Shown here: positions 132-12,191 of the stretch, piece by piece
Layout: every line of letters starts with the position of its first letter
Numbering within the stretch: position 1 is the first letter of the stretch
Virus record (IMG/VR): IMGVR_UViG_3300042402_002792
Source of the DNA: a virus
Lineage: Duplodnaviria > Heunggongvirae > Uroviricota > Caudoviricetes
DNA length: 64,000 bases
Direction: 5' to 3' (one strand)
The notes under the pieces: generated by a model
Seen by the model: the letters and a program-made list of their open reading frames with translations, nothing else
Database searches by the model: none
What the model was told of the DNA's origin: nothing
Position numbers and translations under genes: made by a program

Positions 132-196
132 AACAAGGGCCGTGAGATAATATCAAGACGATCGGCGCTGGAGCACCTACCCAGCACAAATTTTAT

Positions 197-271: not shown

Positions 272-341
272 GTTTAGGATGCTAACAGCAAAGTTAAAAA
301 CTTTTCTTATGGTGAAAACAAAATGCATCCTGTTTTATTAT

Positions 342-415: not shown

Positions 416-420
416 GTTTT

Positions 421-495: not shown

Positions 496-523
496 AGTTA
501 AGGATACTAACAGCAAAACCCTT

Positions 524-600
524 TTCGCCTTGTAAGCGAGTGGTAGTTGGTTCGAATCCAACATTAGGCTCCAAGCCTGATTAGCTCATTTGGTAGAGCA
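524..600 (+). tRNA. Circularly permuted or split tRNA-Thr(TGT)-like gene. The 3' half (anticodon arm through CCA, 524-573) lies directly upstream of its cognate 5' half (acceptor plus D-arm, 575-600)
   Basis: Region 524-573 reads TTCGC-CTTGTAA-GCGAG, then variable region, then T-arm GTTGG-TTCGAAT-CCAAC, then acceptor-3' ATTAGGC-T-CCA. Region 575-600 reads GCCTGAT-TA-GCTC-ATTTGGTA-GAGC-A. The acceptor strands are complementary at 7 of 7 positions with one G·U. The break falls at tRNA position 26/27. The unit is flanked by the inverted repeat AGGATAC (502-508) and GTATCCT (610-616). Confidence 0.4.
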
Positions 601-626
601 CTTTAAAATGTATCCTGTTTTTCTAT

Positions 627-702: not shown

Positions 703-708
703 ATCATT

Positions 709-784
709 GCCGCTTTAGCTGATGTGGTCATAGCACCGGTTTGAAGCACCGAGGAACGTGGTTCGATCCCACGAGGCGGCACCA
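709..784 (+). tRNA. tRNA-Phe (anticodon GAA)
   Basis: Acceptor GCCGCTT/AGGCGGC. D-arm GCTG..TAGC. Anticodon loop TTGAAGC. T-arm CGTGG-TTCGATC-CCACG. CCA is encoded. Confidence 0.6.
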
Positions 785-789
785 AACAT

Positions 790-864
790 ACCACTGTCGT
801 ATAATGGAGTATACTCCGGTCTACGAAACCGGCAATGGAGGTTCGATTCCTTCCAGTGGTGCCA
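790..864 (+). tRNA. tRNA-Arg (anticodon ACG)
   Basis: Acceptor ACCACTG/CAGTGGT. D-arm GTAT..ATAC. Anticodon stem CCGGT/ACCGG with loop CTACGAA. T-loop TTCGATT. CCA is encoded. Confidence 0.65.
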
Positions 865-1019
865 GTTTATGGGATAGACGATAGTTTTGAGTCCCGCCTA
901 GTCTAGCCGAGTGCGCCGCTCGGTGACAAAACAGTATGACTAAGAGCGGTCTGTTAAACTTGACTATTCGAGACAATCTAGCGAGTCCTCCCAGGAGGAT
1001 AGTTAGGCGCCCAACTTTT
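865..1019 (+). ncRNA. Unassigned structured non-coding segment of 155 nt inside the tRNA cluster. It is not tRNA-shaped
   Basis: No open reading frame is present. It contains local hairpins (CCGAG..CTCGG, TCCTCC..GGAGGA) and a repeated GATAGTT. It is probably co-transcribed with the flanking tRNAs. Confidence 0.25.
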
Positions 1020-1096
1020 GCCCTTATACGCTAATTGGTAACGCGAATGGATTTAAAATCCGTTGTCTGTAGGTTCGAATCCAACTAAGGGTACCA
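1020..1096 (+). tRNA. Class-I (short variable loop) tRNA with anticodon TAA, formally Leu(UUA)
   Basis: Acceptor GCCCTTA/TAAGGGT. D-arm CGCT-AATTGGTAA-CGCG. Anticodon stem ATGGA/TCCGT with loop TTTAAAA. Variable region is 5 nt. T-loop TTCGAAT. CCA is encoded. Confidence 0.45.
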
Positions 1097-1097
1097 T

Positions 1098-1172
1098 ACC
1101 GCTTTCGTATAATGGATAATACAGCAGGCTTCTACCCTGCGAATATGGGTTCGATTCCTCTAGGCGGTGCCA
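1098..1172 (+). tRNA. tRNA-Arg (anticodon TCT)
   Basis: Acceptor ACCGCTT/AGGCGGT. D-arm GTAT..ATAC. Anticodon stem GCAGG/CCTGC with loop CTTCTAC. T-loop TTCGATT. CCA is encoded. Confidence 0.6.
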
Positions 1173-1265
1173 TATAAGCAAACACATTAGTGAGAGAACG
1201 GTCATAGACCTTAGGGCTTAGCCTGCGGCATCGTTATTTACGGTGGCTAGTGTGTTTACTTATAT
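1173..1265 (+). ncRNA. Roughly 93-nt structured element: a long hairpin closed by a 15/16-bp terminal helix, lying between two tRNAs
   Basis: TAAGCAAACACATTAG (1175-1190) is complementary to CTAGTGTGTTTACTTA (1246-1261). The interior forms sub-hairpins (GGTC-ATA-GACC, AACG..CGTT). No open reading frame is present. Confidence 0.3.
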
Positions 1266-1342
1266 GCCCCTTTACGCTAATTGGTAGTGCGGATTCTCTC
1301 AAAAGGAGTTGGCTGTCTGTTCGAATCAGACAAGGGGTACCA
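1266..1342 (+). tRNA. Class-I tRNA with anticodon CAA, formally Leu(UUG). Paralog of the tRNA at 1020-1096
   Basis: Acceptor GCCCCTT/AAGGGGT. D-arm CGCT-AATTGGTAG-TGCG. Anticodon stem ATTCT/GGAGT with loop CTCAAAA. Perfect T-arm GTCTG-TTCGAAT-CAGAC. CCA is encoded. Confidence 0.45.
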
Positions 1343-1344
1343 AA

Positions 1345-1418
1345 GCTCTTATAGGTAAGTGGTATACCAGCACTTTGGTAAAGTGCAATCACAAGTTCAA
1401 TTCTTGTTAAGAGCACCA
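1345..1418 (+). tRNA. tRNA-Thr (anticodon GGT)
   Basis: Perfect acceptor GCTCTTA/TAAGAGC. D-arm GGTA-AGTGGTA-TACC. Anticodon stem GCACT/AGTGC with loop TTGGTAA. T-arm ACAAG-TTCAATT-CTTGT. CCA is encoded. Confidence 0.65.
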
Positions 1419-1430
1419 GGTAAATATTGT

Positions 1431-2096
1431 ATGATTTTTTTACCAGCATTTTGTGTAGATGATTTTTACAGCAATCCAGACGCAGTAAGAGAGTTTGCTC
1501 TAAAACAAGAATTTAGGTCATCTGAAGGTCGTTGGCCTGGAAAGAGAACTAGAGACTTATCCGAAATTGATCCTGCGTTTCACGAACAATTCGCTAAAAA
1601 AGTTTTTTCTTTATTTCTTGAAGATGTAAACGATGTTACCAGATATAATTTGAAAACCAGTTTTCAAATGGTACCTACTCTAGATCAAGATCCAAACTCG
1701 CCTAAAAATCAAGGATGGATTCATTTTGATGATCAAACTGTTTTCGCAGGCATTGTATATCTTTCACCTGATGCAAGACCAGAAAACGGAACTTCTATCT
1801 TTAAGCTGATTAACGAATCTACGTTAGATCACGATTCTACATGTAAACAAGATTTTTATACAGGTAAAGTCTCAGAAAATTATGACGAAACAATATCACG
1901 CCATAATGGATCGTATCTAGAAACAATTAGTTTTAATAATTTATATAATCGAATGATCTGCTTTGATCGCAGTCAACCCCATGGTGTAAAATCTTTTTAC
2001 ACTACAGGTGAGACTAGATTAACACAAGTGTTCTTTCTTATGGATTTCGAAACAACAGTAACACCCCCTATTATTAGGCATAAAAAATATTTATGA
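1431..2096 (+). CDS. 2OG-Fe(II) oxygenase superfamily-like protein, first of a tandem paralog family
   Basis: ORF 1359-2096 trimmed to the first ATG downstream of tRNA-Thr. An HFD motif and a distal FDRSQPHGV (H plus RxS) match the 2-His-1-carboxylate plus 2OG-binding pattern. Confidence 0.5.
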   Translation: MIFLPAFCVDDFYSNPDAVREFALKQEFRSSEGRWPGKRTRDLSEIDPAFHEQFAKKVFSLFLEDVNDVTRYNLKTSFQMVPTLDQDPNSPKNQGWIHFDDQTVFAGIVYLSPDARPENGTSIFKLINESTLDHDSTCKQDFYTGKVSENYDETISRHNGSYLETISFNNLYNRMICFDRSQPHGVKSFYTTGETRLTQVFFLMDFETTVTPPIIRHKKYL

Positions 2097-2656
2097 ACAC
2101 ATCAATTTTTAAAGATTACACTGTAATCGACAACGCATTAGAAAATCCATATGACTTAGTTAATCAAGCTAACTCAATAAATTACTACACTAATGAAACA
2201 AATTCATTTGAAGACTTTAATTTAAGTGTACAAAATAAACCACCTGGAATTTGGAGAGGTTACAGATCAGAAGAGCTTGATAAACTAGTTCCGGAGTTAT
2301 TTGCAAATATTACTAATCAAATTATTAGTAAGGTTTTAAATATACAGCAGTTTCAATATGTAGTAAGCTCTTATTTGCATAGAGGCGATCAATCTATTGA
2401 TAGTCAAGATTTATGGCATGTAGATAAAAATGTAGCATTTGCATTTGTACTATACCTAAATCATAATCCTCCGGCAAAAACGGGTACTTTATTAAAAATA
2501 AATCAAGAAATTGTTCCAATTGAGAATAAATTTAATAGACTCGTAGTGTATAATAGCTCTATAGAACACAGAGTTGAAAACTTTTTTGGAGATACATTTG
2601 AGTCTAGTAGACTAACACTTACAGGATTTATTCATAAGCTAGCAATTAGCTGTTGA
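2093..2656 (+). CDS. 2OG-Fe(II) oxygenase-like paralog
   Basis: 187-aa ORF with start/stop overlap to its neighbours. Motifs WHVDKN (HxD) and distal EHRV. Confidence 0.5.
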   Translation: MNTSIFKDYTVIDNALENPYDLVNQANSINYYTNETNSFEDFNLSVQNKPPGIWRGYRSEELDKLVPELFANITNQIISKVLNIQQFQYVVSSYLHRGDQSIDSQDLWHVDKNVAFAFVLYLNHNPPAKTGTLLKINQEIVPIENKFNRLVVYNSSIEHRVENFFGDTFESSRLTLTGFIHKLAISC

Positions 2657-3273
2657 CAATGTTTATTTTAGATAACTTTATTGATAGATACCACGCTGAT
2701 AAAATTGAACAAGAATTTTCTAGTAACAAATTTCCGTGGTATTATCTAGAACAATCATTGCCATTGCCAGCAGTAACTAGTTTTGTAAATACGTCAGTTT
2801 TTAGACATTCGTTTATTGTTGAAAATAAATCAAATTCGGATTATGTAAGTCTGTTAACTCCGTTCTTAGAAAAAATAACTAATATGTTTTCCAGTAAGAT
2901 TGAAGTAGCTTCAATTACTGCAAACTTCTTGACCCCAAATCAAGATCTTATTGGAAAACATATTATACCTCATTATGATGTAAAATATGAAAATAAAGTT
3001 TACAACGAATTTCAAACATACACAGGATTATATTATGTAAATGATAGTGATGGCGAAACTATCTTGTTTAACGAAAAACAAGATGATGAACCTATACTAT
3101 CATTTACTGAATTAGGTAGAGTAATTCCAAAGAAAAATAGATTTGTATTTTGGAACTCTCGGCACTATCATAGTGCTCCAGCATCAGCAACAAGGAATAG
3201 ATTCGTAATTAATTTTAATTTTATAGTTGAAAAAGGAAGTGTGGCAGAGCCCGGTTTATTGCAGCAGTCTTGA
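2653..3273 (+). CDS. 2OG-Fe(II) oxygenase-like paralog (PhyH-like pattern)
   Basis: 206 aa. Motifs HYD...HYHS...RxR. The 3' end overlaps the tRNA-Ser gene by about 39 nt. Confidence 0.5.
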   Translation: MTMFILDNFIDRYHADKIEQEFSSNKFPWYYLEQSLPLPAVTSFVNTSVFRHSFIVENKSNSDYVSLLTPFLEKITNMFSSKIEVASITANFLTPNQDLIGKHIIPHYDVKYENKVYNEFQTYTGLYYVNDSDGETILFNEKQDDEPILSFTELGRVIPKKNRFVFWNSRHYHSAPASATRNRFVINFNFIVEKGSVAEPGLLQQS

Positions 3274-3326
3274 AAACTGCCGGCTCCGAAAGGGGTCCGT
3301 GAGTTCGAATCTCACCGCTTCCACCA
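3235..3326 (+). tRNA. tRNA-Ser (anticodon TGA), class II
   Basis: Acceptor GGAAGTG/CGCTTCC. Anticodon stem GCAGT/ACTGC with loop CTTGAAA. 18-nt variable arm. T-arm GTGAG-TTCGAAT-CTCAC. CCA is encoded. Confidence 0.65.
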
Positions 3327-3332
3327 AATTAT

Positions 3333-3407
3333 CGCGGGGTACGTCAGTGGCAGACTATCGGGCTCATAACCCGAAAGACGGAGGTTCGAGTCCTTCCCCC
3401 GCAACCA
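3333..3407 (+). tRNA. Initiator tRNA-fMet (anticodon CAT)
   Basis: C1·A72 mismatch. Anticodon stem TCGGG/CCCGA (three G·C pairs next to the loop) with loop CTCATAA. T-arm GGAGG-TTCGAGT-CCTTC. CCA is encoded. Confidence 0.65.
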
Positions 3408-3412
3408 AATAT

Positions 3413-3511
3413 GCCGCCATAGCTTAATGGTAAAGAAGCGAGCTTATACCTCGCCAAAGCACAGGCCAGATAAGCCTGAGTGTGCAGGTTCGAGTCCTGC
3501 TGGCGGCACCA
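3413..3511 (+). tRNA. Oversized (99-nt) tRNA-like gene. The candidate anticodon arm is GCGAG-CTTATAC-CTCGC (anticodon TAT) and is followed by an unusually long (~29-nt) extra arm
   Basis: Perfect acceptor GCCGCCA/TGGCGGC and T-arm GCAGG-TTCGAGT-CCTGC. CCA is encoded. The interior contains a second hairpin, CAGGC-CAGATAA-GCCTG. Identity could not be resolved by eye. Confidence 0.35.
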
Positions 3512-3519
3512 AAATTTAT

Positions 3520-3597
3520 GTAGGGGTGGCAGAGAGGCCCAATGCAGTGGATTGCAAATCCGCAAAACCGTCGGTTCGAATCCGACTCCCTACTCCA
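3520..3597 (+). tRNA. tRNA-Cys (anticodon GCA)
   Basis: Acceptor GTAGGGG/TCCCTAC with discriminator U. Anticodon stem GTGGA/TCCGC with loop TTGCAAA. T-arm GTCGG-TTCGAAT-CCGAC. CCA is encoded. Confidence 0.55.
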
Positions 3598-3620
3598 TAA
3601 TAAAATATAAGTAGTATATT

Positions 3621-3697
3621 GCCCCGATGACGGAATTGGTATACGTGTTGGTCTTAGAAGCCAAATTTTGCGAGTTCGAGTCTCGCTTGGGGCACCA
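3621..3697 (+). tRNA. Class-I tRNA with anticodon TAG, formally Leu(CUA)
   Basis: Acceptor GCCCCGA/TTGGGGC. Anticodon stem TTGGT/GCCAA with loop CTTAGAA. Variable region is 5 nt. T-arm GCGAG-TTCGAGT-CTCGC. CCA is encoded. Confidence 0.45.
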
Positions 3698-3703
3698 AAT
3701 AAT

Positions 3704-3777
3704 GCGGGATTAGTTTAATGGTCAAACGAAACCTTGCCAAGGTTTAGTCAGGAGTTCGATTCTCCTATCCCGCTCCA
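3704..3777 (+). tRNA. tRNA-Gly (anticodon GCC)
   Basis: Perfect acceptor GCGGGAT/ATCCCGC. D-arm GTTT..AAAC. Anticodon stem AAACC/GGTTT with loop TTGCCAA. T-arm AGGAG-TTCGATT-CTCCT. CCA is encoded. Confidence 0.65.
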
Positions 3778-3792
3778 AACATGTAGGTTGCT

Positions 3793-5241
3793 ATGTATAA
3801 AATTGTTGTTGTTGGTGGAGGAACAGCTGGATTAATGGCTGCATCGTTTTTAAAATCTACATATGGTCCTCACGTAGATGTAACTGTAATCTATGATCAT
3901 AAAAATCCAGGAATAGGTGTTGGAGAAAGTTTAACTCCTATAATTTATGAATACTTAACTGCTGTCGGAATTACTAGAGAAGAACTTATTTTAAATGTTA
4001 ATGCTACAGTTAAATTAGGTTTAAAATTTAAGAACTGGTTAAATGACGGCGGGTACTACTGGCATCCATTTGTGCAAAAAGACTCACCTAGAAATGATAT
4101 CGATGCCGCATTTGATCTAGCACATAACACTTATGACTCAGATAATGGCTATAGTAGTTATTTTTTAGAATCAAATCGTATACCTAAACAATCCGGTACA
4201 CAGGCATTACATATTGATTCTGTTCTTTTTGCTAGATATATAGAACACAAATTTAAAGATAGAATTAATATTGTCGATGGTATTGTAGATGAAGTAAATG
4301 TAAGCGAACACAATCATATTACTCACGTTAGATTAACAGACGGTCGAGTATTTGACGGTAACTTTTTTGTTGATGCTAGCGGGATGCAGTATGCATTATT
4401 TAAACACTTAAATGTAAAATGGGTTGACAAATCAGACTGGCTACCAATTGATCGATGTATCCCAAATCCAGTTCCGTGGACATTTACAACACAGCCTACT
4501 TATACTACATCCGAAGCTAGCAAAGACGGATGGATATTACAAGTTCCGTTGAGTAATCGTTGGGGTACTGGGTACCTTTACTCTAGTCAATTTCAACAAG
4601 ATAACCGTGCTCACGATACATTTGATCAGTTTTTAAAAAATAACTACGGCACAGAACTTACAAGCTCAAGAGTAATTAAATTTAAAAGTGGCTTTTGGGA
4701 AGATCAATGGGTTGGTAATTGTATTGCTGTAGGATTGTCAAGTGGGTTTACCGAACCGTTAGAAGCTACAAACATACACCATGTTGTTTATCAATTATGG
4801 ATGTTTACTGAAATGTTTAATTTAGAAATACTTAATTACGATAGAAAAAAATATAATAAAATGATGACCAGTTTTTATAACAATGTCTATTTGTATCTTA
4901 GATTTTGTTATACTACAGGAAGAACCGATAGTGAATTTTGGAAATACATGACAGCAAACGTTCCCGAATCAGTTCGAGACTTAGAAGAAAAAATCTCACG
5001 TAACTCAATGAATACCTACTCATTACCAGGTACTGTGTTTTCGTATCATAACTTTACAAAAGTAGCTCACGGGTTAGGAAAAATTAATAGAATGAGCTAC
5101 CTAAACGAGCTCAGATTACGAAATATGATTGAACAAGCAAGGATTAAAGCAACTAAACTCAAAATTGAAAAATTAGTTGACTATGAGACTAGCATTGATC
5201 ATTTAGAATATATAAAATCGGTCCTTAACTCAACTGGATAG
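3793..5241 (+). CDS. FAD-dependent (tryptophan-type) halogenase-like protein
   Basis: 482 aa. N-terminal GxGxxG FAD-binding fold (VVVGGGTAGLMAASF) and a W-x-W/L-x-IP-like motif (DGWILQVP), giving an overall flavin-halogenase architecture. The 3' end overlaps the next tRNA. Confidence 0.55.
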   Translation: MYKIVVVGGGTAGLMAASFLKSTYGPHVDVTVIYDHKNPGIGVGESLTPIIYEYLTAVGITREELILNVNATVKLGLKFKNWLNDGGYYWHPFVQKDSPRNDIDAAFDLAHNTYDSDNGYSSYFLESNRIPKQSGTQALHIDSVLFARYIEHKFKDRINIVDGIVDEVNVSEHNHITHVRLTDGRVFDGNFFVDASGMQYALFKHLNVKWVDKSDWLPIDRCIPNPVPWTFTTQPTYTTSEASKDGWILQVPLSNRWGTGYLYSSQFQQDNRAHDTFDQFLKNNYGTELTSSRVIKFKSGFWEDQWVGNCIAVGLSSGFTEPLEATNIHHVVYQLWMFTEMFNLEILNYDRKKYNKMMTSFYNNVYLYLRFCYTTGRTDSEFWKYMTANVPESVRDLEEKISRNSMNTYSLPGTVFSYHNFTKVAHGLGKINRMSYLNELRLRNMIEQARIKATKLKIEKLVDYETSIDHLEYIKSVLNSTG

Positions 5242-5295
5242 AGTGCAAGTCTTCGAAACTTGAAGTTAGGGGTTCGAGTCCTCTAGGGCCGGCCA
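5219..5295 (+). tRNA. tRNA-Arg (anticodon TCG)
   Basis: Acceptor CGGTCCT/AGGGCCG. D-arm ACTC..GAGT. Anticodon stem CAAGT/ACTTG with loop CTTCGAA. T-arm AGGGG-TTCGAGT-CCTCT. CCA is encoded. The 5' end overlaps the last 23 nt of the halogenase CDS. Confidence 0.55.
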
Positions 5296-5298
5296 GTT

Positions 5299-5373
5299 GC
5301 CGCTGTAGTTCAATGGATAGAACAAGTTCCTCCTAAGAATTAGATGTAGGTTCGATTCCTGCCAGAGGCGCCA
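5299..5373 (+). tRNA. tRNA-Arg (anticodon CCT)
   Basis: Acceptor GCCGCTG/CAGAGGC with one mismatch. D-arm GTTC..GAAC. Anticodon stem AGTTC/GAATT with loop CTCCTAA. T-arm GTAGG-TTCGATT-CCTGC. CCA is encoded. Confidence 0.55.
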
Positions 5374-5379
5374 AACATG

Positions 5380-5408
5380 TTGACAACGAATCTGCTATTA
5401 TGTATAAT
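5380..5408 (+). promoter_or_regulatory. Perfect sigma70 consensus promoter TTGACA-N17-TATAAT. The predicted start coincides with the 5' end of the tRNA-like gene at 5415
   Basis: TTGACA at 5380-5385, a 17-nt spacer, TATAAT at 5403-5408. Confidence 0.55.
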
Positions 5409-5414
5409 TACATT

Positions 5415-5523
5415 GTAGCCGTAACGCAAATAGGCAAAGCTCCAATAGCAACATTGTATGTTGTGAGGGACGGGGTCGAATATAGTTCGGTAACCCATGG
5501 AGGTTCGAAGCCTCCCGGCTACA
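5415..5523 (+). tRNA. Oversized (109-nt) tRNA-like gene of unresolved identity. A candidate anticodon arm GCAAC-ATTGTAT-GTTGT would give anticodon TGT
   Basis: Perfect acceptor GTAGCCG/CGGCTAC and perfect T-arm GGAGG-TTCGAAG-CCTCC. No CCA is encoded. A long internal hairpin GGGTCGAA-TATAG-TTCGGTAACCC sits in the variable region. The D-region is irregular. Confidence 0.3.
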
Positions 5524-5536
5524 TAGGACATTAAAA

Positions 5537-6133
5537 ATGATTATAAGAAATGTATTTGATACCCCAGTTGTAATACATCATTGTCATGACGCAGAAATAT
5601 TTGCTAACAAATCTATCAGAGATAGTATAGAGTTTGTGTTTGGTCTAGAAGAAATTAGAGAAACTATTGATCCATCTCAAGTAGGAAATGCTTTTACAAC
5701 TTGCAATCATTTTGATAAATTTCCGTTGATCTCTATGCCCGGAACTGAAAACTTATCAGAATGGGTAGCTAGGAAAATATTAGAAAGCAGTAAACACTTT
5801 GGATTTGAAAATTCTACCAAAATAGAATTTTTGAGAACATGGATAAATCTTTACTTCTATGGTTGTGAAGGAACCTGCCATCATCATCCAACAGACATTG
5901 ACGGTGTGGGAATTTTTTATATAAAGGTTCCTTCTAATAGTAGCCAATTAGTTTTTATCCGTGACGGCATCGATGGTACTAAGATTAATCAATATCCACC
6001 AGAACAACTTGCGTTTCAACCTGTTGTACAAGGAGACCTGATTATTCACAATCCTAAGGTGCCACATGCTATTTCTCAACATAAAGCTCACGATTCACGA
6101 ATATGTTTTATATACGAGTTTAAATATCATTAA
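5537..6133 (+). CDS. Hypothetical protein, possibly a divergent 2OG oxygenase-like paralog
   Basis: 198-aa ORF. His-rich motifs (CHHHPTD ... VPHAISQH). An AAGGA-type ribosome-binding site is absent but the gene packing is tight. Confidence 0.4.
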   Translation: MIIRNVFDTPVVIHHCHDAEIFANKSIRDSIEFVFGLEEIRETIDPSQVGNAFTTCNHFDKFPLISMPGTENLSEWVARKILESSKHFGFENSTKIEFLRTWINLYFYGCEGTCHHHPTDIDGVGIFYIKVPSNSSQLVFIRDGIDGTKINQYPPEQLAFQPVVQGDLIIHNPKVPHAISQHKAHDSRICFIYEFKYH

Positions 6134-6222
6134 GGAGAGTTGGCAGAGTGGTAATGCACCGGATTGCTAATCCGCCGTTCATGAAAGTGGGCGCACAGGT
6201 TCGAGTCCTGTACTCTCCGCCA
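6134..6222 (+). tRNA. tRNA-Ser (anticodon GCT), class II
   Basis: Perfect acceptor GGAGAGT/ACTCTCC. Anticodon loop TTGCTAA. Long variable arm. T-arm ACAGG-TTCGAGT-CCTGT. CCA is encoded. Confidence 0.6.
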
Positions 6223-6233
6223 TTATTTGTTAT

Positions 6234-6815
6234 ATGAAAATATTTGATAAAGTTTTAGGTCAAAATGCTTTACAATCTTTACAAAAAGAGATTGTGCATA
6301 GCACAGCATTTCCATGGTATAAAACACTAACAACTTACGATTTGAAAGAACCGAATAGCATCAATGACTATAGTTGGTTTCACTTAGTATCAAAAGAAGG
6401 CGAAGTAGTTTCACAAGTCTATTCGTTGCTGTATCCTATGTTGCTATGTGCATTTGATAATATTAACGAACCTGTTAAAGATTTTATAAGATTACGGTTA
6501 GCATTGCAAACACCGATAGGTCAAAAGTTTGTAAATGATGCTCACACAGACTACGGCTTTGAACACAAGACAGCATTATTATATTTGAACACTTGCGATG
6601 GTAACACAATCATCTACAATGAAGCTTATGATCACAAATCGCAAATAAGTCCACTAGATTATTTAAATAACAACTTAAAAAATAATTTAACTGTATTAAG
6701 TGAAGTTGAACCAGTAGAAAATAGACTAGTGCTGTTTGATGGTTTACGTTATCATTCAAGTCAGCGTCCTATTAACTTTCCTTACAGAATTATTTTAAAC
6801 ATAAATTATAATTAA
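6234..6815 (+). CDS. 2OG-Fe(II) oxygenase-like paralog
   Basis: 193 aa. Motifs AHTD (HxD) and distal LRYHSSQR. Confidence 0.5.
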   Translation: MKIFDKVLGQNALQSLQKEIVHSTAFPWYKTLTTYDLKEPNSINDYSWFHLVSKEGEVVSQVYSLLYPMLLCAFDNINEPVKDFIRLRLALQTPIGQKFVNDAHTDYGFEHKTALLYLNTCDGNTIIYNEAYDHKSQISPLDYLNNNLKNNLTVLSEVEPVENRLVLFDGLRYHSSQRPINFPYRIILNINYN

Positions 6816-6823
6816 TATTTTAT

Positions 6824-6899
6824 TCCCTGATAGCTCAGTCGGTAGAGCGACGGACTGTTAATCCGCAGGTCCCTGGTTCGAGCCCAGGTCGGGGAGCCA
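6824..6899 (+). tRNA. tRNA-Asn (anticodon GTT)
   Basis: Acceptor TCCCTGA/TCGGGGA. D-arm GCTC-AGTCGGTA-GAGC. Anticodon loop CTGTTAA. T-arm CCTGG-TTCGAGC-CCAGG. CCA is encoded. Confidence 0.65.
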
Positions 6900-6914
6900 A
6901 ACAAAGAGGAAATT

Positions 6915-7232
6915 ATGAGCAAAGGTAGTAGACCTCGTCCATATAGTGTTAGTCAAAATACGTTTGCTAGCAACTACGATGCAATTTTTCGCAAGCCCGA
7001 TCCTAGGGTTCGAGAAGAATCTATTCAAGAAGACGAAGCATTTAAAGAATTAGAAAAAAGGAATACAATGAGTCCATCAGTAGAACAAATGAAACAAGGT
7101 ACGTGCGGGTGCGGCCGTAGCCCTACAGGAAACTGTTGTGGGTGGCATGCGCTAACAGAAGAACAATATCAGCAACGTAAAGAACTTTACGAAACTGGTA
7201 AAGCTGATTTGCAAGGTCGCGAAGTTAAGTAA
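6915..7232 (+). CDS. Hypothetical Cys-rich protein
   Basis: 105-aa ORF. Ribosome-binding site AAGAGGA. Cys cluster CGCGRSPTGNCCGWH. Confidence 0.45.
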   Translation: MSKGSRPRPYSVSQNTFASNYDAIFRKPDPRVREESIQEDEAFKELEKRNTMSPSVEQMKQGTCGCGRSPTGNCCGWHALTEEQYQQRKELYETGKADLQGREVK

Positions 7233-7235
7233 TCT

Positions 7236-7865
7236 TTGATGTTAAGCACAGTCCTTGATAAGATTAACACTGACGCTGTTCATTATCAACAGCAGGCCGT
7301 AAGCACTGACATTTTTTCTTGGGAAGAATTAGAACGCTTGTTAAATCTTAGGCCATTTGTTAATCATAAAAGATTTCACATACTTAATGATAAAAACTAC
7401 ACTTGGCATAATCCAGGATGGGCTAGTGACAATGGGTATCCTCCGTCTTTGATACAAGAAGAAATCAAAAAGTATGTTTGCTATTTGAGTGACTGTTCTA
7501 AAGTAAACAAATCAATTAATGAGTTGTGTAAACTGATTGAAAATCAGACAGGCAGCGAAGTTGATGCTCATGTTTATTTTTCGTTTTTCTATCAAGATCA
7601 AGACATAGAAAAATATATACACAAAGATAAATCTAATAATTTAATAATTCAAATTGATGGAGAGACTAACTTTAAGGTATTCGGGACTGATCGAAACAGC
7701 GATATTATCTTAGATGTAATTATGCAACCTGGGGATATGCTTTACATACCTGCAGGATATTGGCACGGTGCGCTAAGTCTGAGTCGTAGATTAAGCTTGA
7801 GTATTCCTATTAGTCCTCATCGAGTTGAAATACAAGAAGATAGACACTGGATACAATTAAAATGA
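7236..7865 (+). CDS. Cupin/JmjC-like protein
   Basis: 209 aa. A motif GDMLYIPAGYWHG typical of cupin/JmjC beta-barrel hydroxylases. Confidence 0.45.
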   Translation: MMLSTVLDKINTDAVHYQQQAVSTDIFSWEELERLLNLRPFVNHKRFHILNDKNYTWHNPGWASDNGYPPSLIQEEIKKYVCYLSDCSKVNKSINELCKLIENQTGSEVDAHVYFSFFYQDQDIEKYIHKDKSNNLIIQIDGETNFKVFGTDRNSDIILDVIMQPGDMLYIPAGYWHGALSLSRRLSLSIPISPHRVEIQEDRHWIQLK

Positions 7866-8479
7866 AATACGCTTACTTTAACCCTACTATTGTAGCAATG
7901 GACGATGTACCTGATGATATTTTTCAATGGTGTGTAAATGCTGTTGAGCAAGCACATCTCAGAGAAGATCTCAATGATGCTGGTAATCCAGTATTAAGTA
8001 TTCGAGGCGGCCAACAAGTACAAATACTGCCTAACGAAATGGGTATAGATATAGAGCCGTTGGCTAGATACATTGAAGATATATGCACTCAATATATTGA
8101 TTCTGTACGTGCAAGTGCCGGCATTACCGATGAATTGCCTGTTAAACCTGTATTAGTTAGTGCATGGACTTTAAAACAAGGTCCAGGAGACTATCAGGCA
8201 CTACATAGTCATGAAGCACACTTGAGCGGTAATATCTACATACAAGTTCCAGAACTTGATCTAGATTCTACTAATACAGATTCGTGTATTGAATTTAGAT
8301 TGCCTACTGTACGTAACCCGGCAAGATTTGTATTCACAGACACTTGGCGGTTCAAACCTGAACGTGCTAAAATAATAATGTTTCCTAGTTATCTTCCACA
8401 CACAGTTTATCCGTGGACGGGTAAAGGGCATAGAATTAGTTTAGCATGGGATGCCAAATTAATTGACAAGAGTATCTAA
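7862..8479 (+). CDS. 2OG-Fe(II) oxygenase-like protein
   Basis: 205 aa. Motifs HSHEAH ... PHTVYP ... RISLAWD (distal His plus RxS). Confidence 0.45.
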   Translation: MKYAYFNPTIVAMDDVPDDIFQWCVNAVEQAHLREDLNDAGNPVLSIRGGQQVQILPNEMGIDIEPLARYIEDICTQYIDSVRASAGITDELPVKPVLVSAWTLKQGPGDYQALHSHEAHLSGNIYIQVPELDLDSTNTDSCIEFRLPTVRNPARFVFTDTWRFKPERAKIIMFPSYLPHTVYPWTGKGHRISLAWDAKLIDKSI

Positions 8480-8491
8480 AAGATATATAAT
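8463..8491 (+). promoter_or_regulatory. Perfect sigma70 consensus promoter TTGACA-N17-TATAAT, placed upstream of tRNA-Thr, the structured RNA and tRNA-Gly
   Basis: TTGACA at 8463-8468, 17-nt spacer, TATAAT at 8486-8491. It is followed by AGACACA, as in the promoter at 10240. Confidence 0.55.
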
Positions 8492-8524
8492 AGACACAAG
8501 TTAGAAATTGTTCTTTAAAAATTT

Positions 8525-8599
8525 GCCGGATTAGCTCAGTGGTAGAGCAACCGCCTTGTAAGCGGTAGGTCGTCAGTTCAATCCCGACATCCGGCACCA
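8525..8599 (+). tRNA. tRNA-Thr (anticodon TGT)
   Basis: Perfect acceptor GCCGGAT/ATCCGGC. D-arm GCTC-AGTGGTA-GAGC. Anticodon stem ACCGC/GCGGT with loop CTTGTAA. T-loop TTCAATC. CCA is encoded. Confidence 0.65.
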
Positions 8600-8902
8600 A
8601 GAAAAACCCCGGTTTACTCTTTTACGTTATATAAAGAGCGTCCCTGTAACGATAGACCAGGGGGTACACTAGGACCTGACCTTACAGTCCCCGTTGGGGG
8701 ATACTGAAAACTGCCTAGGGTGAGGAACGCTAACCTCTTCCAAAAGAAGAAATACGTGGACAGAGTAACCGCTCAGTCTAGGGCTCATGTGGTGTGAGTA
8801 GCTAGACACTTTAATCAAATACATTTGGCTTAACTATAAGTTAAGTTGCAAGGACGGCACACCATCCGCAATGAAAAAGTGACAAGTGTGTTTGATTAAA
8901 GT
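8600..8902 (+). ncRNA. Highly structured ~300-nt non-coding RNA candidate lying between tRNA-Thr and tRNA-Gly
   Basis: No open reading frame. A 21-bp long-range helix (8802-8822 with 8879-8903). A perfect hairpin CTTAACT-ATA-AGTTAAG. Nested hairpins GTCTAGGGCTCA..TGAGTAGCTAGAC. CCCTG..CAGGG and CTCTTT..AAAGAG stems. This resembles the stable RNAs embedded in the T4 tRNA cluster. Confidence 0.35.
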
Positions 8903-8976
8903 GCGGGGTTAGTTTAATGGCAAAACAGCAGATTTCCAATCTTCGGTCGAGAGTTCGATTCTCTCACTCCGCTCCA
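8903..8976 (+). tRNA. tRNA-Gly (anticodon TCC)
   Basis: Acceptor GCGGGGT/ACTCCGC. D-arm GTTT..AAAC. Anticodon loop TTTCCAA. T-arm GAGAG-TTCGATT-CTCTC. CCA is encoded. Confidence 0.6.
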
Positions 8977-8987
8977 AAATATAAATT

Positions 8988-9694: not shown

Positions 9695-9701
9695 AAAAAT
9701 T

Positions 9702-10274: not shown

Positions 10275-10781
10275 TAGCAAGCAGAAATGCTTGTAGAGAG
10301 TTTTAGGATCGGTACAGCAACATTCATATTACTATGGATCGTTGGACCCTATGGTAGTCAGCTGGAGTTGAAAGGTTCGCCTGGAGACTGTGAAGGTTGC
10401 TATTGAAATAGACCAACAAGCACAGAGTGATGGCCTGTGTAAAATAAAAGCAGTCAACAACGATCCTGTTAGTTTTGGATGACTACAGCAATTTAAATCA
10501 ATCGAACTAAAGCTATAGAAGGTGGCCGCGGGGCACAGTAGAAATACTGTTTTAGAAATAGACGCTCAAGGAATAGCTAGGCCGGCAAAGCCCGGATATG
10601 ATTTACATACAGAAAAATATGTAATAGGCAACATGAATGTTGCTAGGGTCTGAGTGCCGTAATTGGTCAGACCAGAAAATAAACAAATTGGCACGATCAT
10701 CCTGTTAAAGTTTTAGAATGTTAACAGCAACTTTAAATTTTCAAGCATATCGAAAAAAAATACATTCTGTGAGGTAATAAA
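10275..10781 (+). ncRNA. Candidate ~500-nt structured non-coding RNA, possibly Y-RNA-like given its Ro60/TROVE-like neighbour, or a long structured 5' UTR
   Basis: No open reading frame of 60 aa or more on the plus strand across ~500 nt downstream of a consensus promoter. Multiple hairpins (CAAGCA-GAAA-TGCTTG, GGTCTGA..TCAGACC, GCAACAT..ATGTTGC). A T-loop-like GGTTCGCC. Two copies of the ATCCTGTTA..TAACAGCAA hairpin motif. Confidence 0.3.
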
Positions 10782-12191
10782 ATGAACGCATTTGTAAACG
10801 CAATCGCAAATCAAGAAGCCCGTACCGCAAACGGTATGAAGGCACGTAAGTCAACAGCTAAGGCTACCGTTGACCTGTTCTACAACATCGGTGCAAGCCG
10901 TGGTAAGGACATCACAGGCGACTTCACAGCCGCTTATGTGGAAAACGCAGACGTAGCATTACGCATCGCACAATGGGCACGTGATGTCCGAGGTGGTGCA
11001 GGTGAACGTCAACTGTTCCGTGATATTCTAGTTCATCTAGAAAAGCGTGACCCAGACGCCGCTTTGGCTCTTCTAAAGAAGATTCCAGAAGTTGGACGTT
11101 GGGATGACATCTTTGTCTTCACCAACCCTGTTCTGAAGTCAGCCGCTTATACCATGTTGGGCGATGCCCTTCGTGCTAATAACGGTCTGGCTGCAAAGTG
11201 GACCCCCCGTAAGGGTCAAATTGCCGCTGAGATTCGTGCCTTCTTTGGCATGACTCCGAAGCAATATCGTAAGAGCCTTGTTGCTCTTACCAAGGTGGTT
11301 GAAACCCAGATGTGTGCTAACGACTGGGATAACATCAACTTTAGCCATGTTCCTTCTGTGGCTGCTCGCAACTACAAGAAGGCATTCAACCGTCACACTC
11401 CTCTGTTCGCAGAGTATGTGGCCAAGTTGGTGGCAGGGGATAAGACTGTTAAGGTTAACGCCAGCGCAATCTTCCCACATGATGTCCTAAAGGGCATCGC
11501 ACACAGCTACACTAAGCTGAACAAGACAGAAACCGACCATGTGATTGCACAATGGGACGCTCTGCCTAACTATGTAGGTGACGCAAGTATCCTACCTCTA
11601 GTTGACGTTTCTGGTTCGATGACAACATCTGTTCCAGGTTCAACTGTTCGCTGTTTAGATGTAGCAGTCGGTCTAGGCTTGTATCTTGCAGATAAGAACA
11701 AGGGTGTGTTCAAGGACACGTTCTTGACTTTCTCAAGCAAGCCACAACTGGCTACTCTAAAGGGTAACATTGTTGCAAAGGTTGACCAAATGTCAAGTAG
11801 CAACTGGGAAATGAGCACTAACTTGCATGCCGCTATGGACAAGATCCTAAGCGTTGCAGTTAAGGGTTCAGTACCGGCTAGTGACATGCCAAAGATGTTA
11901 CTCATCTTGAGTGACATGCAGTTTAACCAATGTGCTCGTTTCGACGACTCAGCAATGCAAATGATTGAACGAAAGTTCGCAGATGCAGGTTACACTGTTC
12001 CGCAAATTGTTTTCTGGAACCTAAACAGTTCTGGCAACGTGCCTGTAAAGGCAGACAAGAGTGGCGCGGCACTGGTAAGTGGTTTTAGTCCAAGCATCAT
12101 GACAGCTCTGTTGTCAGCGGATATGGACCAATTCACTCCAGAAGGTATCATGATGAAGACTGTAATGGTTCCTCGTTATGACCTTAACTAA
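10782..12191 (+). CDS. Ro60/TROVE-like or DUF2828-like protein with a C-terminal vWA (MIDAS) domain
   Basis: 469 aa. MIDAS motif DxSxS (LVDVSGSMTT) within a vWA-like C-terminal half, and a helical N-terminal half. Noticeably GC-richer than its neighbours. AGGTAAT ribosome-binding site. Confidence 0.5.
   Translation: MNAFVNAIANQEARTANGMKARKSTAKATVDLFYNIGASRGKDITGDFTAAYVENADVALRIAQWARDVRGGAGERQLFRDILVHLEKRDPDAALALLKKIPEVGRWDDIFVFTNPVLKSAAYTMLGDALRANNGLAAKWTPRKGQIAAEIRAFFGMTPKQYRKSLVALTKVVETQMCANDWDNINFSHVPSVAARNYKKAFNRHTPLFAEYVAKLVAGDKTVKVNASAIFPHDVLKGIAHSYTKLNKTETDHVIAQWDALPNYVGDASILPLVDVSGSMTTSVPGSTVRCLDVAVGLGLYLADKNKGVFKDTFLTFSSKPQLATLKGNIVAKVDQMSSSNWEMSTNLHAAMDKILSVAVKGSVPASDMPKMLLILSDMQFNQCARFDDSAMQMIERKFADAGYTVPQIVFWNLNSSGNVPVKADKSGAALVSGFSPSIMTALLSADMDQFTPEGIMMKTVMVPRYDLN

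What the first reader, a model, noticed from the sequence alone, without database searches (positions are those of the whole stretch)
865..8902. Stable-RNA-like structured segments embedded in the tRNA clusters
Three ORF-free segments (865-1019, 1173-1265, 8600-8902) between tRNAs show strong local and long-range base pairing. Examples are a 15/16-bp closing helix at 1175-1190 with 1246-1261, and a 21-bp helix at 8802-8822 with 8879-8903. There are multiple perfect hairpins. They are probably co-transcribed with the tRNAs. The promoter at 8463-8491 directly precedes tRNA-Thr plus the 300-nt RNA. They may be processed into small stable RNAs, by analogy to the two stable RNAs of unknown function in the T4 tRNA region.
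Basis: partly seen in the sequence, partly recalled or inferred. Interest (0 to 1): 0.55.

Follow-up and report, generated by a model that had tools for sequence, protein, structure and literature searches.

The report
New structured RNAs inside phage tRNA arrays
The gaps between tRNA genes of this uncultivated jumbo phage hold at least four conserved, intricately folded small RNAs of unknown function and no known family, a much richer version of the two unexplained stable RNAs in the tRNA cluster of phage T4.

Summary
The three segments are real structured RNAs, not chance folds. Relatives from about 225 IMG/VR loci show they are four independent modules.

- S1 (868-1014) is about 145 nt.
- S2 (1173-1265) is a roughly 90-nt four-way junction.
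- The "300-nt RNA" is two units. S3A (8600-8812) is about 210 nt with ten helices, three of them pseudoknot contacts. S3B (8808-8902) is a three-way junction.

All four show compensatory base changes. For S3A, 31 of 44 pairs covary and 91% of cells are paired, against 36-49% in slid controls. S3B has 18 of 24 pairs with compensatory changes, and S1 has 9 of 21. G·U pairs far outnumber A·C on the tRNA strand. The modules abut same-strand tRNAs and change neighbours between phages. A perfect sigma-70 promoter precedes tRNA-Thr/S3A.

Nothing matches Rfam, ARAGORN, T4 rnaC/rnaD or GenBank phages. S3A has at least 126 distinct sequences and is essentially restricted to phage contigs.

They are most likely cut out of tRNA operon transcripts by the tRNA-processing enzymes and act in trans. 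The function is unknown.

The same array holds a separate Y-RNA-like element family, and 2.2 kb downstream of S3A lies a gene whose predicted fold matches Ro60. Transcripts were not tested.

The parts
868..1014 (+). S1: conserved structured RNA of about 145 nt in spacer 865-1019. It has a long helix (CGAUAGUU../..GACUAUUCG), inner helices and a 3' hairpin. Invariant motifs are AUAGACG, GAGUCC (twice), UGACA, UAAACU, CGAGACAA and GAUAGUU.
   Evidence: nhmmer finds 30 hits, 23 distinct. RNAalifold gives 21 pairs, 9 with compensatory changes. In helices G·U+U·G number 89 against 1 A·C+C·A. A same-strand tRNA lies within 20 nt upstream in 18 of 25 and downstream in 21 of 25.
1173..1265 (+). S2: roughly 90-nt four-way junction. 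An 18-pair closing stem (1173-1191 with 1246-1264, one C·A mismatch) encloses three hairpins.
   Evidence: z = -4.74. Seven distinct homologues; hairpins 1 and 3 and the outer stem covary. All 10 of 10 are flanked by tRNAs on both sides, and the tRNA identity varies. The homologue set is biased, because it was found with a pattern taken from the closing stem.
8600..8812 (+). S3A: roughly 210-nt multi-pseudoknotted RNA. Helices in window coordinates: H1 8617-8622/8633-8638; PK1 8639-8641/8649-8651 with 8642-8646/8658-8662; H3 8663-8665/8679-8681; PK2 8669-8673/8714-8718; H4 8685-8692/8696-8706; H5 8719-8725/8734-8740; PK3 8727-8729/8755-8757; H6 8763-8766/8771-8774; H7 8776-8787/8795-8807 with the invariant loop UGUGGUG.
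   Evidence: CM R1 gives 51 hits. 91.3% of cells are paired against 36-49% in slid controls, 31 of 44 pairs have compensatory changes, and 0 of 500 shuffles reach the observed score. Pseudoknot variants are listed, with the self-versus-cross control. 160 hits, 126 distinct. More than 120 IMG/VR stretches.
8808..8902 (+). S3B: roughly 85-90-nt three-way junction. Closing stem AAUCAAAUACA/UGUGUUUGAUU, hairpin GCUUAACU-AUA-AGUUAAGU, conserved junction UGUAAGGAC, and a second helix enclosing CACC...AAAAG.
   Evidence: 65 hits, 50 distinct. 24 pairs, 18 with compensatory changes. G·U 132 against A·C 14. It occurs apart from S3A between other tRNAs, for example L067 3914-3998. In 53 of 57 a tRNA follows within 20 nt.
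8463..8491 (+). Sigma-70-type promoter TTGACA-17-TATAAT, 34 nt upstream of tRNA-Thr(tgt).
   Evidence: 12/12 match. A perfect promoter lies 19-34 nt before the tRNA block preceding S3A in 11 of 62 distinct loci.
8525..8599 (+). tRNA-Thr(tgt). Its CCA end abuts S3A.
   Evidence: In relatives S3A starts 0-3 nt after a tRNA.
8903..8976 (+). tRNA-Gly(tcc). Its 5' end defines the 3' end of S3B, where RNase P would cut.
790..864 (+). tRNA-Arg(acg), upstream boundary of S1.
1020..1172 (+). tRNA-Leu(taa) and tRNA-Arg(tct), lying between S1 and S2.
1266..1342 (+). tRNA-Leu(caa), downstream boundary of S2.
276..331 (+). Context, not part of the finding: a short P0 element. It has the stem AGGAUGC/GCAUCCU and the motif UAACAGCAA.
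501..616 (+). Context: a long P0 element (P1). It encloses a circularly permuted tRNA-like domain: an anticodon-like hairpin, a T arm, a closed acceptor stem and a D arm.
   Evidence: Rfam YrlA scores 33.4 bits here. A homologue scores 41.2 bits over the full model. All are below the gathering score of 69.
10715..10768 (+). Context: a P0 element in the 5' UTR, directly before the Shine-Dalgarno sequence and ATG of the Ro60-like gene.
10782..12191 (+). Context: Ro60-like protein (Pfam DUF2828 + DUF7788; PHROG 850 'RNA-binding protein').
   Evidence: AlphaFold2 model with pLDDT 91. The Foldseek top 10 hits are all Ro60/TROVE, E 1.8e-7 to 2.1e-4, TM-score (query) 0.37-0.64, 0.53-0.64 for the eight best.

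Best explanation
S1, S2, S3A and S3B are genes for four unrelated, previously undescribed families of structured non-coding RNA. They behave as cassettes within the tRNA arrays of a clade of uncultivated jumbo phages that appears to be freshwater.

Proposed mechanism: each module is transcribed as part of a tRNA operon, here from the consensus promoter at 8463-8491 for tRNA-Thr, S3A, S3B and tRNA-Gly. RNase P cutting at the 5' end of the next tRNA sets the module's 3' end. The endo- and exonucleases that mature the 3' CCA end of the preceding tRNA set its 5' end. The compact folds (long terminal stems in S2 and S3B, three pseudoknots in S3A) then let the excised pieces persist as discrete small RNAs that act in trans.

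The most likely job is as protein-binding or scaffold RNAs within the phage's own translation and RNA-maintenance module. That module comprises about 26 tRNAs in this window, a Ro60-like protein, a metallophosphatase, a polynucleotide-kinase-like protein and a ligase.

Shown: the structures are real and selected at the RNA level on the tRNA strand; the boundaries coincide with tRNA ends; the modules are independent and shuffle between positions; they belong to no known family.

Inferred: co-transcription, excision, stability and action in trans. The molecular target is unknown.
For: Covariation:
- S3A has 31 of 44 pairs with compensatory changes and 91.3% of cells paired, against 36-49% when partners are slid. 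None of 500 shuffles reaches the observed score.
- S3B has 18 of 24 pairs with compensatory changes.
- S1 has 9 of 21.
- S2 hairpins 1 and 3 covary.

Strand: G·U outnumbers A·C by 89 to 1 in S1, 132 to 14 in S3B and 134 to 64 in S3A.

Boundaries: S3A begins 0-3 nt after a tRNA. S2 is flanked by tRNAs on both sides in 10 of 10. S3B is followed by a tRNA in 53 of 57. S1 has a tRNA upstream in 18 of 25 and downstream in 21 of 25. All are on the same strand, and the identity of the neighbouring tRNA varies.

Modularity: S3A and S3B occur apart in L067, L035, L062 and others.

Transcription signal: the promoter is a 12/12 match, and a perfect promoter recurs in 11 of 62 distinct loci.

Precedent: T4 has tRNA-Arg | rnaD | rnaC with gaps of 1 and 6 nt.

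Context: the Ro60-like fold, the PNK-like and phosphatase genes, and DUF2828 genes abutting tRNA arrays in the unrelated phages GEP101 and BUCT-ZZ01.
Against: - No transcript data were available, so expression, ends and stability are all inferred.
- S3A is preceded directly by a tRNA in only 69 of 132 distinct copies. It is followed by something unidentified in 92 of 132. Processing therefore cannot depend on tRNAs alone.
- S1 is not more stable than shuffled sequence.
- The S2 homologue set is small and was found with a biased pattern.
- PK1 and PK3 of S3A rest on a handful of variant classes, and the formal control is modest.
- No functional partner has been shown. About 30 of 105 S3A loci have more than 5 kb of downstream sequence with no Ro60-like gene in it.
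Confidence: 0.6

Rival explanations
1. Some modules, chiefly S2 and S3B, which have a long 5'-3' stem closing an internal module, are Y-RNA-type partners of the Ro60-like protein encoded at 10782-12191. They would tether or gate it, as Y RNAs do for Ro60/Rsr.
For: - The protein's predicted fold matches Ro60/TROVE over its full length.
- Y RNAs are 80-130 nt, with a long stem and an internal loop, and are encoded near Ro60 on the same strand (PMC4201824).
- Thermus phage Ro60 binds two Y-like RNAs encoded upstream of its gene (PMC12135203).
- A Listeria phage with a DUF2828 protein has abundant ncRNAs within 2 kb upstream of that gene (PMC12282133).
- S3A and S3B lie 2.2 kb upstream of the gene on the same strand.
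Against: - S1, S2, S3A and S3B all lack the GNCGAA/CGAA motif. That check was my own reading of the sequences.
- None matches Rfam Y RNA or YrlA models.
- A better candidate ligand exists in the same array. The P0 stem plus UAACAGCAA motif also sits in the 5' UTR of the Ro60-like gene and frames tRNA-like domains. S1-S3 lack that motif.
- Linkage to the gene is loose.
Confidence: 0.17
2. The modules are decoys or mimics that soak up host anti-phage RNases or RNA-modifying enzymes aimed at tRNA or rRNA, protecting the phage's translation.
For: - They sit among phage tRNAs and RNA-repair-type genes, a setting linked to conflicts over the translation apparatus (PMC7824862).
- Neighbouring P0 elements display anticodon-stem-loop look-alikes.
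Against: - S1, S2, S3A and S3B show no detectable resemblance to tRNA, rRNA or any Rfam family.
- A decoy would be expected to copy its target.
Confidence: 0.1
3. S3A is a catalytic RNA, either a self-cleaving ribozyme that frees the 3' end of the upstream tRNA (as HDV-like theta ribozymes do) or a tRNA-end-binding ribozyme.
For: - It has a dense multi-pseudoknot fold.
- It starts 0-3 nt after a tRNA in many loci.
- Theta ribozymes are found adjacent to viral tRNAs in gut phages (PMC10879173, abstracts).
- The invariant loop UGUGGUG contains UGGU, the complement of the tRNA 3' end ACCA. That is my own reading.
Against: - The first 5-7 nt after the tRNA are variable and unpaired, whereas an HDV-like P1 helix begins at +1.
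- No hit to any Rfam ribozyme model.
- About half the copies do not follow a tRNA.
Confidence: 0.06
4. The modules are structured spacers that act only in cis. They would insulate neighbouring tRNAs from misfolding or provide nuclease entry sites, and would be degraded after processing.
For: They always lie within tRNA arrays on the same strand.
Against: - An insulator does not need long invariant single-stranded motifs or three pseudoknots kept across at least 126 distinct sequences.
- Most tRNAs in these arrays are only 1-10 nt apart and manage without such spacers.
Confidence: 0.05
5. They are DNA-level elements, such as miniature mobile elements with terminal inverted repeats or recombination sites. 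Alternatively they are decayed tRNA genes or chance folds.
For: - The modules move between positions in the array.
- S2 and S3B have terminal inverted repeats.
Against: - G·U strongly exceeds A·C.
- Compensatory changes occur in internal hairpins and pseudoknots.
- Orientation always matches the tRNAs.
- No tRNA signal from ARAGORN or Rfam.
Confidence: 0.02

Closest known systems
Phage T4 species 1 and species 2 stable RNAs (rnaC, 139 nt; rnaD, 119 nt)
   Same: They are small structured RNAs of unknown function encoded in a phage tRNA cluster. They sit on the tRNA strand and abut a tRNA and each other with gaps of 1 and 6 nt.
   Different: - No sequence similarity to S1, S2, S3A or S3B.
- T4 has two RNAs at the end of one cluster. 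This phage clade has many module families that shuffle among tRNAs.
- S3A is larger and pseudoknotted.
Bacterial and phage Y RNAs (YrlA/YrlB, Yrn1, phiLo Yrl1/2) with Ro60/Rsr
   Same: - The RNAs are encoded near a Ro60-type gene on the same strand.
- S2 and S3B share the Y RNA outline of a long terminal stem plus an internal module and fall in the 80-130 nt size range.
   Different: - No GNCGAA/CGAA motif, no tRNA-like domain and no Rfam match.
- The protein here is the divergent DUF2828 branch, not a canonical TROVE protein.
- The P0/P1 elements fit the Y RNA model better than S1-S3 do.
GOLLD and ROOL large ornate RNAs
   Same: From my own knowledge, these are elaborately folded non-coding RNAs of unknown function that are often found beside tRNA genes in phages and prophages.
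   Different: - They are much larger. From memory, roughly 580-800 nt.
- No Rfam hit here, even at E up to 10.
HDV-like theta ribozymes adjacent to phage tRNAs (PMC10879173)
   Same: They are pseudoknotted RNAs adjacent to viral tRNA genes. S3A also sits immediately 3' of a tRNA.
   Different: - Theta ribozymes are minimal HDV-like ribozymes. From my own knowledge of HDV-like folds, the P1 helix starts at +1.
- S3A is 210 nt with a variable, unpaired 5' end, and matches no ribozyme model.

Membership tests
T4-type stable RNAs of a tRNA cluster (rnaC/rnaD) | Encoded within a phage tRNA cluster, on the same strand, directly abutting tRNAs | tested here: met
T4-type stable RNAs of a tRNA cluster (rnaC/rnaD) | Sequence or structure homology to rnaC or rnaD | tested here: not met
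   nhmmer with --max on the T4 locus gives only noise, E 5.9-9.3 or nothing. CM R1 finds nothing in L227.
T4-type stable RNAs of a tRNA cluster (rnaC/rnaD) | Accumulates as a discrete stable RNA processed from the tRNA precursor | not testable with these tools
   No transcript data. Only a promoter and boundaries at tRNA ends.
Y RNA / YrlA (Rfam RF02553) | Encoded near a Ro60 orthologue on the same strand (within 4 kb in Chen et al. 2014) | tested here: inconclusive
   S3A and S3B lie 2.2 kb upstream on the same strand. S1 and S2 lie about 9.6 kb away. The protein has a Ro60 fold but belongs to DUF2828, not TROVE. Linkage is loose across loci.
Y RNA / YrlA (Rfam RF02553) | Long stem formed by the 5' and 3' ends, plus a large internal loop or module; 80-130 nt | tested here: inconclusive
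   Met by S2 and S3B. Not met by S3A, which has no supported closing helix. S1 is about 145 nt.
Y RNA / YrlA (Rfam RF02553) | Ro-binding motif GNCGAA(N)G / CGAA near the 5' end | tested here: not met
   Absent on direct reading of S1, S2, S3A and S3B (alignments). Motif definition.
Y RNA / YrlA (Rfam RF02553) | Reaches the Rfam gathering score | tested here: not met
   No hit in S1-S3 at E up to 10. Only the separate P1 element scores, at 33-41 bits against a gathering score of 69.
tRNA, tmRNA, RNase P RNA, 6S, SRP RNA, known ribozymes and riboswitches, GOLLD, ROOL (Rfam 15; ARAGORN) | Match to the family covariance model or to ARAGORN | tested here: not met
   The best hit is whalefall-1 at 11.4 bits, E 3.7.
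HDV-like theta ribozyme | Immediately 3' of a phage tRNA | tested here: inconclusive
   True for 69 of 132 distinct S3A copies and for the window copy.
HDV-like theta ribozyme | Nested double pseudoknot with P1 starting at +1 | tested here: not met
   The first 5-7 nt are variable and unpaired. No Rfam HDV-type hit.
HDV-like theta ribozyme | Self-cleavage | not testable with these tools
   Needs an in vitro assay.

The most novel reading that the evidence does not exclude
S3A is a new class of large functional RNA with a defined biochemical activity: a ribozyme, a module that binds tRNA 3' ends, or the RNA core of a phage RNP. It would work together with the smaller modules and the Ro60-like protein as a phage-encoded system that manages tRNA and RNA quality during infection. 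If so, the tRNA-cluster 'stable RNAs' known since T4 would be components of a machine rather than by-products.
Probability: 0.12. Interest if true: 0.85.

Novelty: new variant of a known kind. Interest (0 to 1): 0.62.

Why it matters
The two stable RNAs in the T4 tRNA cluster have had no assigned function for decades. This phage clade offers a far richer data set of the same kind.

- It provides several RNA families with hundreds of natural sequence variants, giving structure models at base-pair resolution.
- One family is a 210-nt RNA with three pseudoknots, a level of complexity usually seen in ribozymes, riboswitches or RNP cores.
- The neighbouring Ro60-like gene and Y-RNA-like elements suggest concrete binding experiments.

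Even if the function stays unknown, these are new RNA families that could be added to Rfam, and they would improve annotation of phage tRNA regions.

Tried and rejected
- **Rfam.** Gathering thresholds on the whole window, E up to 5 on 1-10200, and E up to 10 on each segment alone. Nothing for S1-S3.
- **ARAGORN.** No tRNA or tmRNA in the segments.
- **GenBank phages.** Megablast matched only tRNAs. Distant blastn with 8600-8902 found nothing at E up to 1.
- **T4 rnaC/rnaD.** No similarity.
- **Long closing helix for S3A.** The MFE pairs 8610-8627 with 8754-8771. I rejected this because 5' CGGUUUAC and 3' GUAACCG do not covary, while the competing local hairpins H1 and H6 do.
- **RNase P-like reading of GGACAGAGUAACCGCUC.** Rejected, because that stretch forms a covarying local hairpin and no RNase P model matches.
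- **Mis-spaced pattern.** My first IMG/VR pattern had NNNN where NNN was needed, and returned mostly chance hits.
- **Relatives through the DUF6445 ORF at 1431-2096.** Only 8 distant loci, no use for S1 or S2.
- **Clustering of inter-tRNA spacers.** Single linkage collapsed 552 of the 778 distinct spacers into one cluster, because the spacers are mosaics.
- **Sequence profile of the protein against PDB.** Only weak Ro60 hits, E 0.3-1.4. The fold search was needed.
- **Supplements of the 10,006-csRNA paper (PMC10690425).** Not held, so I could not check whether pieces of these RNAs are among its unnamed candidates. Its IMG/VR motifs are at most 151 nt long.

Full report
**What the window is**

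The first 10 kb hold 25 ARAGORN tRNAs plus one more found only by Rfam, all on the + strand. They are interleaved with ORFs for 2OG-Fe(II) oxygenase-type proteins and a tryptophan-halogenase-like enzyme.

GenBank phages share only tRNA-sized matches with this region. IMG/VR holds hundreds of relatives. A search with the protein at 10782-12191 gave 387 confirmed loci, on contigs up to 356 kb. An identical protein lies on a 364-kb contig. The window therefore comes from an uncultivated jumbo phage. I infer a freshwater origin only from scattered hints, so it is not established.

**Checking the observation**

The three spacers lie exactly between tRNAs. Single-sequence folding gives these results:

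| Segment | Energy | z-score | Shuffles folding as well |
|---|---|---|---|
| S2 (1173-1265) | -32.0 kcal/mol | -4.74 | 0 of 200 |
| S3 (8600-8902) | -101.7 kcal/mol | -4.83 | 0 of 100 |
| S1 (865-1019) | -46.9 kcal/mol | -1.75 | 10 of 200 |

S1 is therefore not significant by energy alone.

The quoted helices exist with small offsets.

The promoter at 8463-8491 is a perfect TTGACA-17-TATAAT match. It is one of three perfect matches in 12.3 kb, all on the + strand.

**Comparative analysis: four modules, not three**

BLAST and nhmmer against the related loci show that 8600-8902 is two units. S3A (8600-8812) and S3B (8808-8902) occur at separate places in several phages. In L067, for example, S3A is at 4931-5139 and S3B at 3914-3998, between tRNA-Gly(gcc) and tRNA-Arg(tcg).

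I also searched with a pattern from the S2 stem. Over the resulting 227 loci the counts were:

| Module | nhmmer hits | Distinct sequences |
|---|---|---|
| S3A | 160 | 126 |
| S3B | 65 | 50 |
| S1 | 30 | 23 |
| S2 | 10 | 7 |

**S3A**

A covariance model built from 13 sequences and a hand-derived nested structure found 51 copies in the first 94 sources. The pair counts on that alignment are:
- 91.3% of cells form standard pairs, against 36-49% when partners are slid by 1-3 columns.
- 31 of 44 pairs show changes on both sides.
- None of 500 shuffles reaches the observed covariation score.

The alignment was fitted to the model, which favours the structure. The slid controls and the raw MAFFT alignment show the same compensatory patterns.

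Three further contacts cross the nested helices:
- **PK1** appears as CGU/ACG, GGUG/CACC, GGUA/UACC and GGC/GCC.
- **H3** appears as GGU/ACC, CGGUG/UACCG, CGGCG/UGCCG and CAGGUG/CACCUG. Its loop pairs downstream to form PK2.
- **PK2** appears as CUAGG/CCUAG, CCAGG/CCUGG, CAAUGC/GCAUUG and UUGGAU/AUCACAA.
- **PK3** joins the H5 loop to a downstream strand. It appears as ACG/CGU, UAUAACG/UGUUAUG, UACAUCG/UGAUGUG, ACAUU/AAUGU and GCA/UGC.

I ran a crude control comparing each sequence's own strands with strands taken from other sequences. It is clear for PK2 and H3 and modest for PK1 and PK3.

The MFE closing helix of S3A is not supported by covariation. The local hairpins that compete with it are.

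The 3' third (GGACAGAGUAAC.GCUCAGUCUAGGGC...UGUGGUG...GUAGCUAGACAC) is nearly invariant apart from compensatory changes in its stems.

**S3B, S1 and S2**

- **S3B** is a three-way junction. 18 of its 24 predicted pairs have compensatory changes.
- **S1** has a long helix and a 3' hairpin, with 9 of 21 predicted pairs compensatory. More covariation is visible by eye in the inner helices, which MAFFT misaligns.
- **S2** is a four-way junction. Hairpins 1 and 3 and the outer stem covary among seven distinct sequences. That set was retrieved through the conserved stem and is therefore biased.

**RNA, not DNA, and on the tRNA strand**

Within the helices G·U+U·G outnumber A·C+C·A:

| Module | G·U + U·G | A·C + C·A |
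|---|---|---|
| S1 | 89 | 1 |
| S3B | 132 | 14 |
| S3A | 134 | 64 |

DNA palindromes would show no such asymmetry.

**Boundaries and mobility**

- S3A starts 0-3 nt after the CCA end of a tRNA, usually Thr-tgt but also Asn-gtt, Leu-tag or Ala-tgc. A same-strand tRNA directly precedes it in 69 of 132 distinct copies.
- S2 has a same-strand tRNA within 20 nt on both sides in 10 of 10.
- S3B is followed by a tRNA in 53 of 57.
- S1 has a tRNA upstream in 18 of 25 and downstream in 21 of 25.

The identity of the flanking tRNAs varies, so each module is an independent cassette. In 92 of 132 S3A copies the downstream neighbour is neither a tRNA nor S3B, so further unclassified modules exist.

A perfect sigma-70 consensus lies 19-34 nt upstream of the tRNA block preceding S3A in 11 of 62 distinct loci. 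It scores at least 10/12 in 19 of 62.

**Comparison with known RNAs**

Nothing in Rfam 15 matches, even when each segment is searched alone at E up to 10. ARAGORN finds no tRNA or tmRNA.

T4 has the same architecture, tRNA-Arg | rnaD | rnaC with gaps of 1 and 6 nt, but no similarity.

One scan of 185,579 species-representative genomes gave a single true S3A, on a 5.5-kb contig binned as Polynucleobacter that is most likely phage DNA. A large survey of IMG/VR structured RNAs reported motifs of at most 151 nt. Its files could not be checked.

**Context that bears on mechanism**

The protein at 10782-12191 belongs to Pfam DUF2828 + DUF7788 and to PHROG 850, 'RNA-binding protein'. A sequence profile gave only weak Ro60 hits. 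A confident AlphaFold2 model (pLDDT 91) changes that. Its ten best PDB matches are all Ro60/TROVE proteins aligned over their full length, with E 1.8e-7 to 2.1e-4 and query TM-scores of 0.37-0.64, 0.53-0.64 for the eight best.

Homologues are common in cultured phages and are sometimes annotated 'Ro-like'. In Felixounavirus GEP101 and in Synechococcus phage BUCT-ZZ01 the gene again abuts a tRNA array. For a Listeria phage, abundant ncRNAs within 2 kb upstream of the homologous gene have been proposed to be Y RNAs (PMC12282133).

A separate element family, which I call P0, is present three times in the window. It has a covarying 7-bp stem followed by UAACAGCAA.
- 276-331 is the short form.
- 501-616 is the long form. 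It encloses a circularly permuted tRNA-like domain and gives sub-threshold YrlA hits.
- 10715-10768 lies directly before the Shine-Dalgarno sequence and ATG of the Ro60-like gene.

These are documented. P0, not S1-S3, is the best candidate for a Y-RNA-like ligand. S1-S3 lack its motif, and they also lack the CGAA motif of known Y RNAs.

**Explanation**

The best-supported reading is that S1, S2, S3A and S3B are genes for new structured RNAs. They would be transcribed with the tRNAs, released by the tRNA-processing machinery, and then act in trans. I give this a confidence of 0.6. Structure, strand, boundaries and modularity are shown. Transcription, excision, stability and target are inferred.

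The rivals I weighed are:
- Y-RNA-type partners of the Ro60-like protein (0.17)
- decoys for host nucleases (0.10)
- a ribozyme role for S3A (0.06)
- purely cis-acting spacers (0.05)
- DNA-level elements or chance folds (0.02)

**Verdict**

The finding is real and was understated. These are new RNA families of a kind known only from poorly understood precedents. S3A is complex enough to deserve experimental work.

Noticed in passing
window 276-331, 501-616, 10715-10768; about 128 distinct copies in loci L001-L226: A repeated RNA element, which I call P0. Its form is (U)AGGAUNN-UAACAGCAA-[insert]-AAAAU-NNAUCCU-G. The stem covaries at three positions: AGAAUGU/ACAUUCU, AGGAUAC/GUAUCCU, AGGAUAG/CUAUCCU, AGGAUGC/GCAUCCU and AGGUUAU/AUAACCU. 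One variant always sits in the 5' UTR of the Ro60-like gene. Others lie between tRNAs and are followed by a U tract. This suggests a shared protein-binding site, serving both Y-RNA-like small RNAs and autoregulation of the gene.
   Followed up: partly
window 501-616 (and L003 1375, L006 7878, L014 730, L024 1508, L071 8110 and others): Long P0 elements enclose a circularly permuted tRNA-like domain: an anticodon-like hairpin, a T arm, a closed acceptor stem and a D arm. Some close the acceptor with a GNRA loop. The window copy reads ..GGCUCCAAGCC.., which keeps a CCA. Rfam YrlA scores 33-41 bits, below the gathering score of 69.
   Followed up: partly
short P0 elements, e.g. L015 442, L010 2928, L023 2218, L067 1163: The small hairpin inside many short P0 elements looks like an anticodon stem-loop. 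UUGA-CUUUUAA-UCAA has the shape of a tRNA-Lys(UUU) anticodon arm, and CUAGA-CUUGUAA-UCUAA is Thr(UGU)-like. These could be decoys or substrates for anticodon-directed enzymes.
   Followed up: no
window 10782-12191: The DUF2828/DUF7788 protein has a full-length Ro60 fold (HEAT-repeat ring plus vWA domain). Homologous genes abut tRNA arrays in the unrelated cultured phages Felixounavirus GEP101 and Synechococcus phage BUCT-ZZ01, and 706 GenBank phage records hold a match.
   Followed up: partly
window 3413-3508: A 96-nt tRNA that ARAGORN missed in its default run and Rfam scored at 59.5 bits. It has anticodon UAU (Ile) and a long extra arm of about 25 nt. ARAGORN-nt tRNA-Ile(tat) genes in many related loci. 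A class-II-like tRNA-Ile is unusual.
   Followed up: partly
window 5380-5408, 8463-8491, 10239-10267 (12/12) and 12239-12267 (11/12); terminator 12207-12232: Perfect sigma-70 consensus promoters, all on the + strand, punctuate the tRNA/oxygenase region. A strong intrinsic terminator follows the Ro60-like gene.
   Followed up: partly
window 1431-9620: At least six paralogous ORFs of about 190-220 aa match 2OG-Fe(II) oxygenase or DUF6445 families. With a tryptophan-halogenase-like gene (3793-5241), they are interleaved with the tRNAs. The pattern hints at RNA- or protein-modifying enzymes tied to the tRNA module.
   Followed up: no
window 12974-13579, 13684-14145, 33840-35153: A metallophosphatase, a polynucleotide-kinase-like protein and an ATP-dependent ligase lie downstream of the Ro60-like gene. 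Together they look like an RNA-repair toolkit.
   Followed up: no
S3A loop 8788-8794 (UGUGGUG) and S3B 8861-8867 (CACACCA): The invariant S3A hairpin loop is complementary to the near-invariant CACCA of S3B. It is also complementary to the ACCA 3' end of tRNAs. This could be a kissing contact or a tRNA-end binding site. Both partners are invariant, so covariation cannot test it.
   Followed up: no
L086 7722-7922 (-) and L087 2939-3139: A second, divergent S3A-like copy (44 bits) lies about 90 nt from the main copy. S3A can therefore be duplicated in tandem.
   Followed up: no
L005 4268-4439: An S3A copy lacks its 5' half, which is replaced by tRNA-like sequence. This looks like recombination between a tRNA and the RNA module.
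   Followed up: no
L067 5140-5266 and many other loci: In 92 of 132 distinct S3A copies the downstream neighbour is neither a tRNA nor S3B. These arrays hold 778 distinct inter-tRNA spacers of 45-450 nt, so more unclassified RNA modules probably exist.
   Followed up: partly
window 132-196: This 65-nt spacer between tRNA-Trp and tRNA-Ile has one homologue (L105) and only weak predicted structure. Its status is unclear.
   Followed up: partly
L233 (CAYVBV010000120.1): The only true S3A among 185,579 species-representative genomes lies on a 5.5-kb contig binned as Polynucleobacter. One protein relative is labelled 'Ralstonia phage'. Both are weak hints of a betaproteobacterial host.
   Followed up: no
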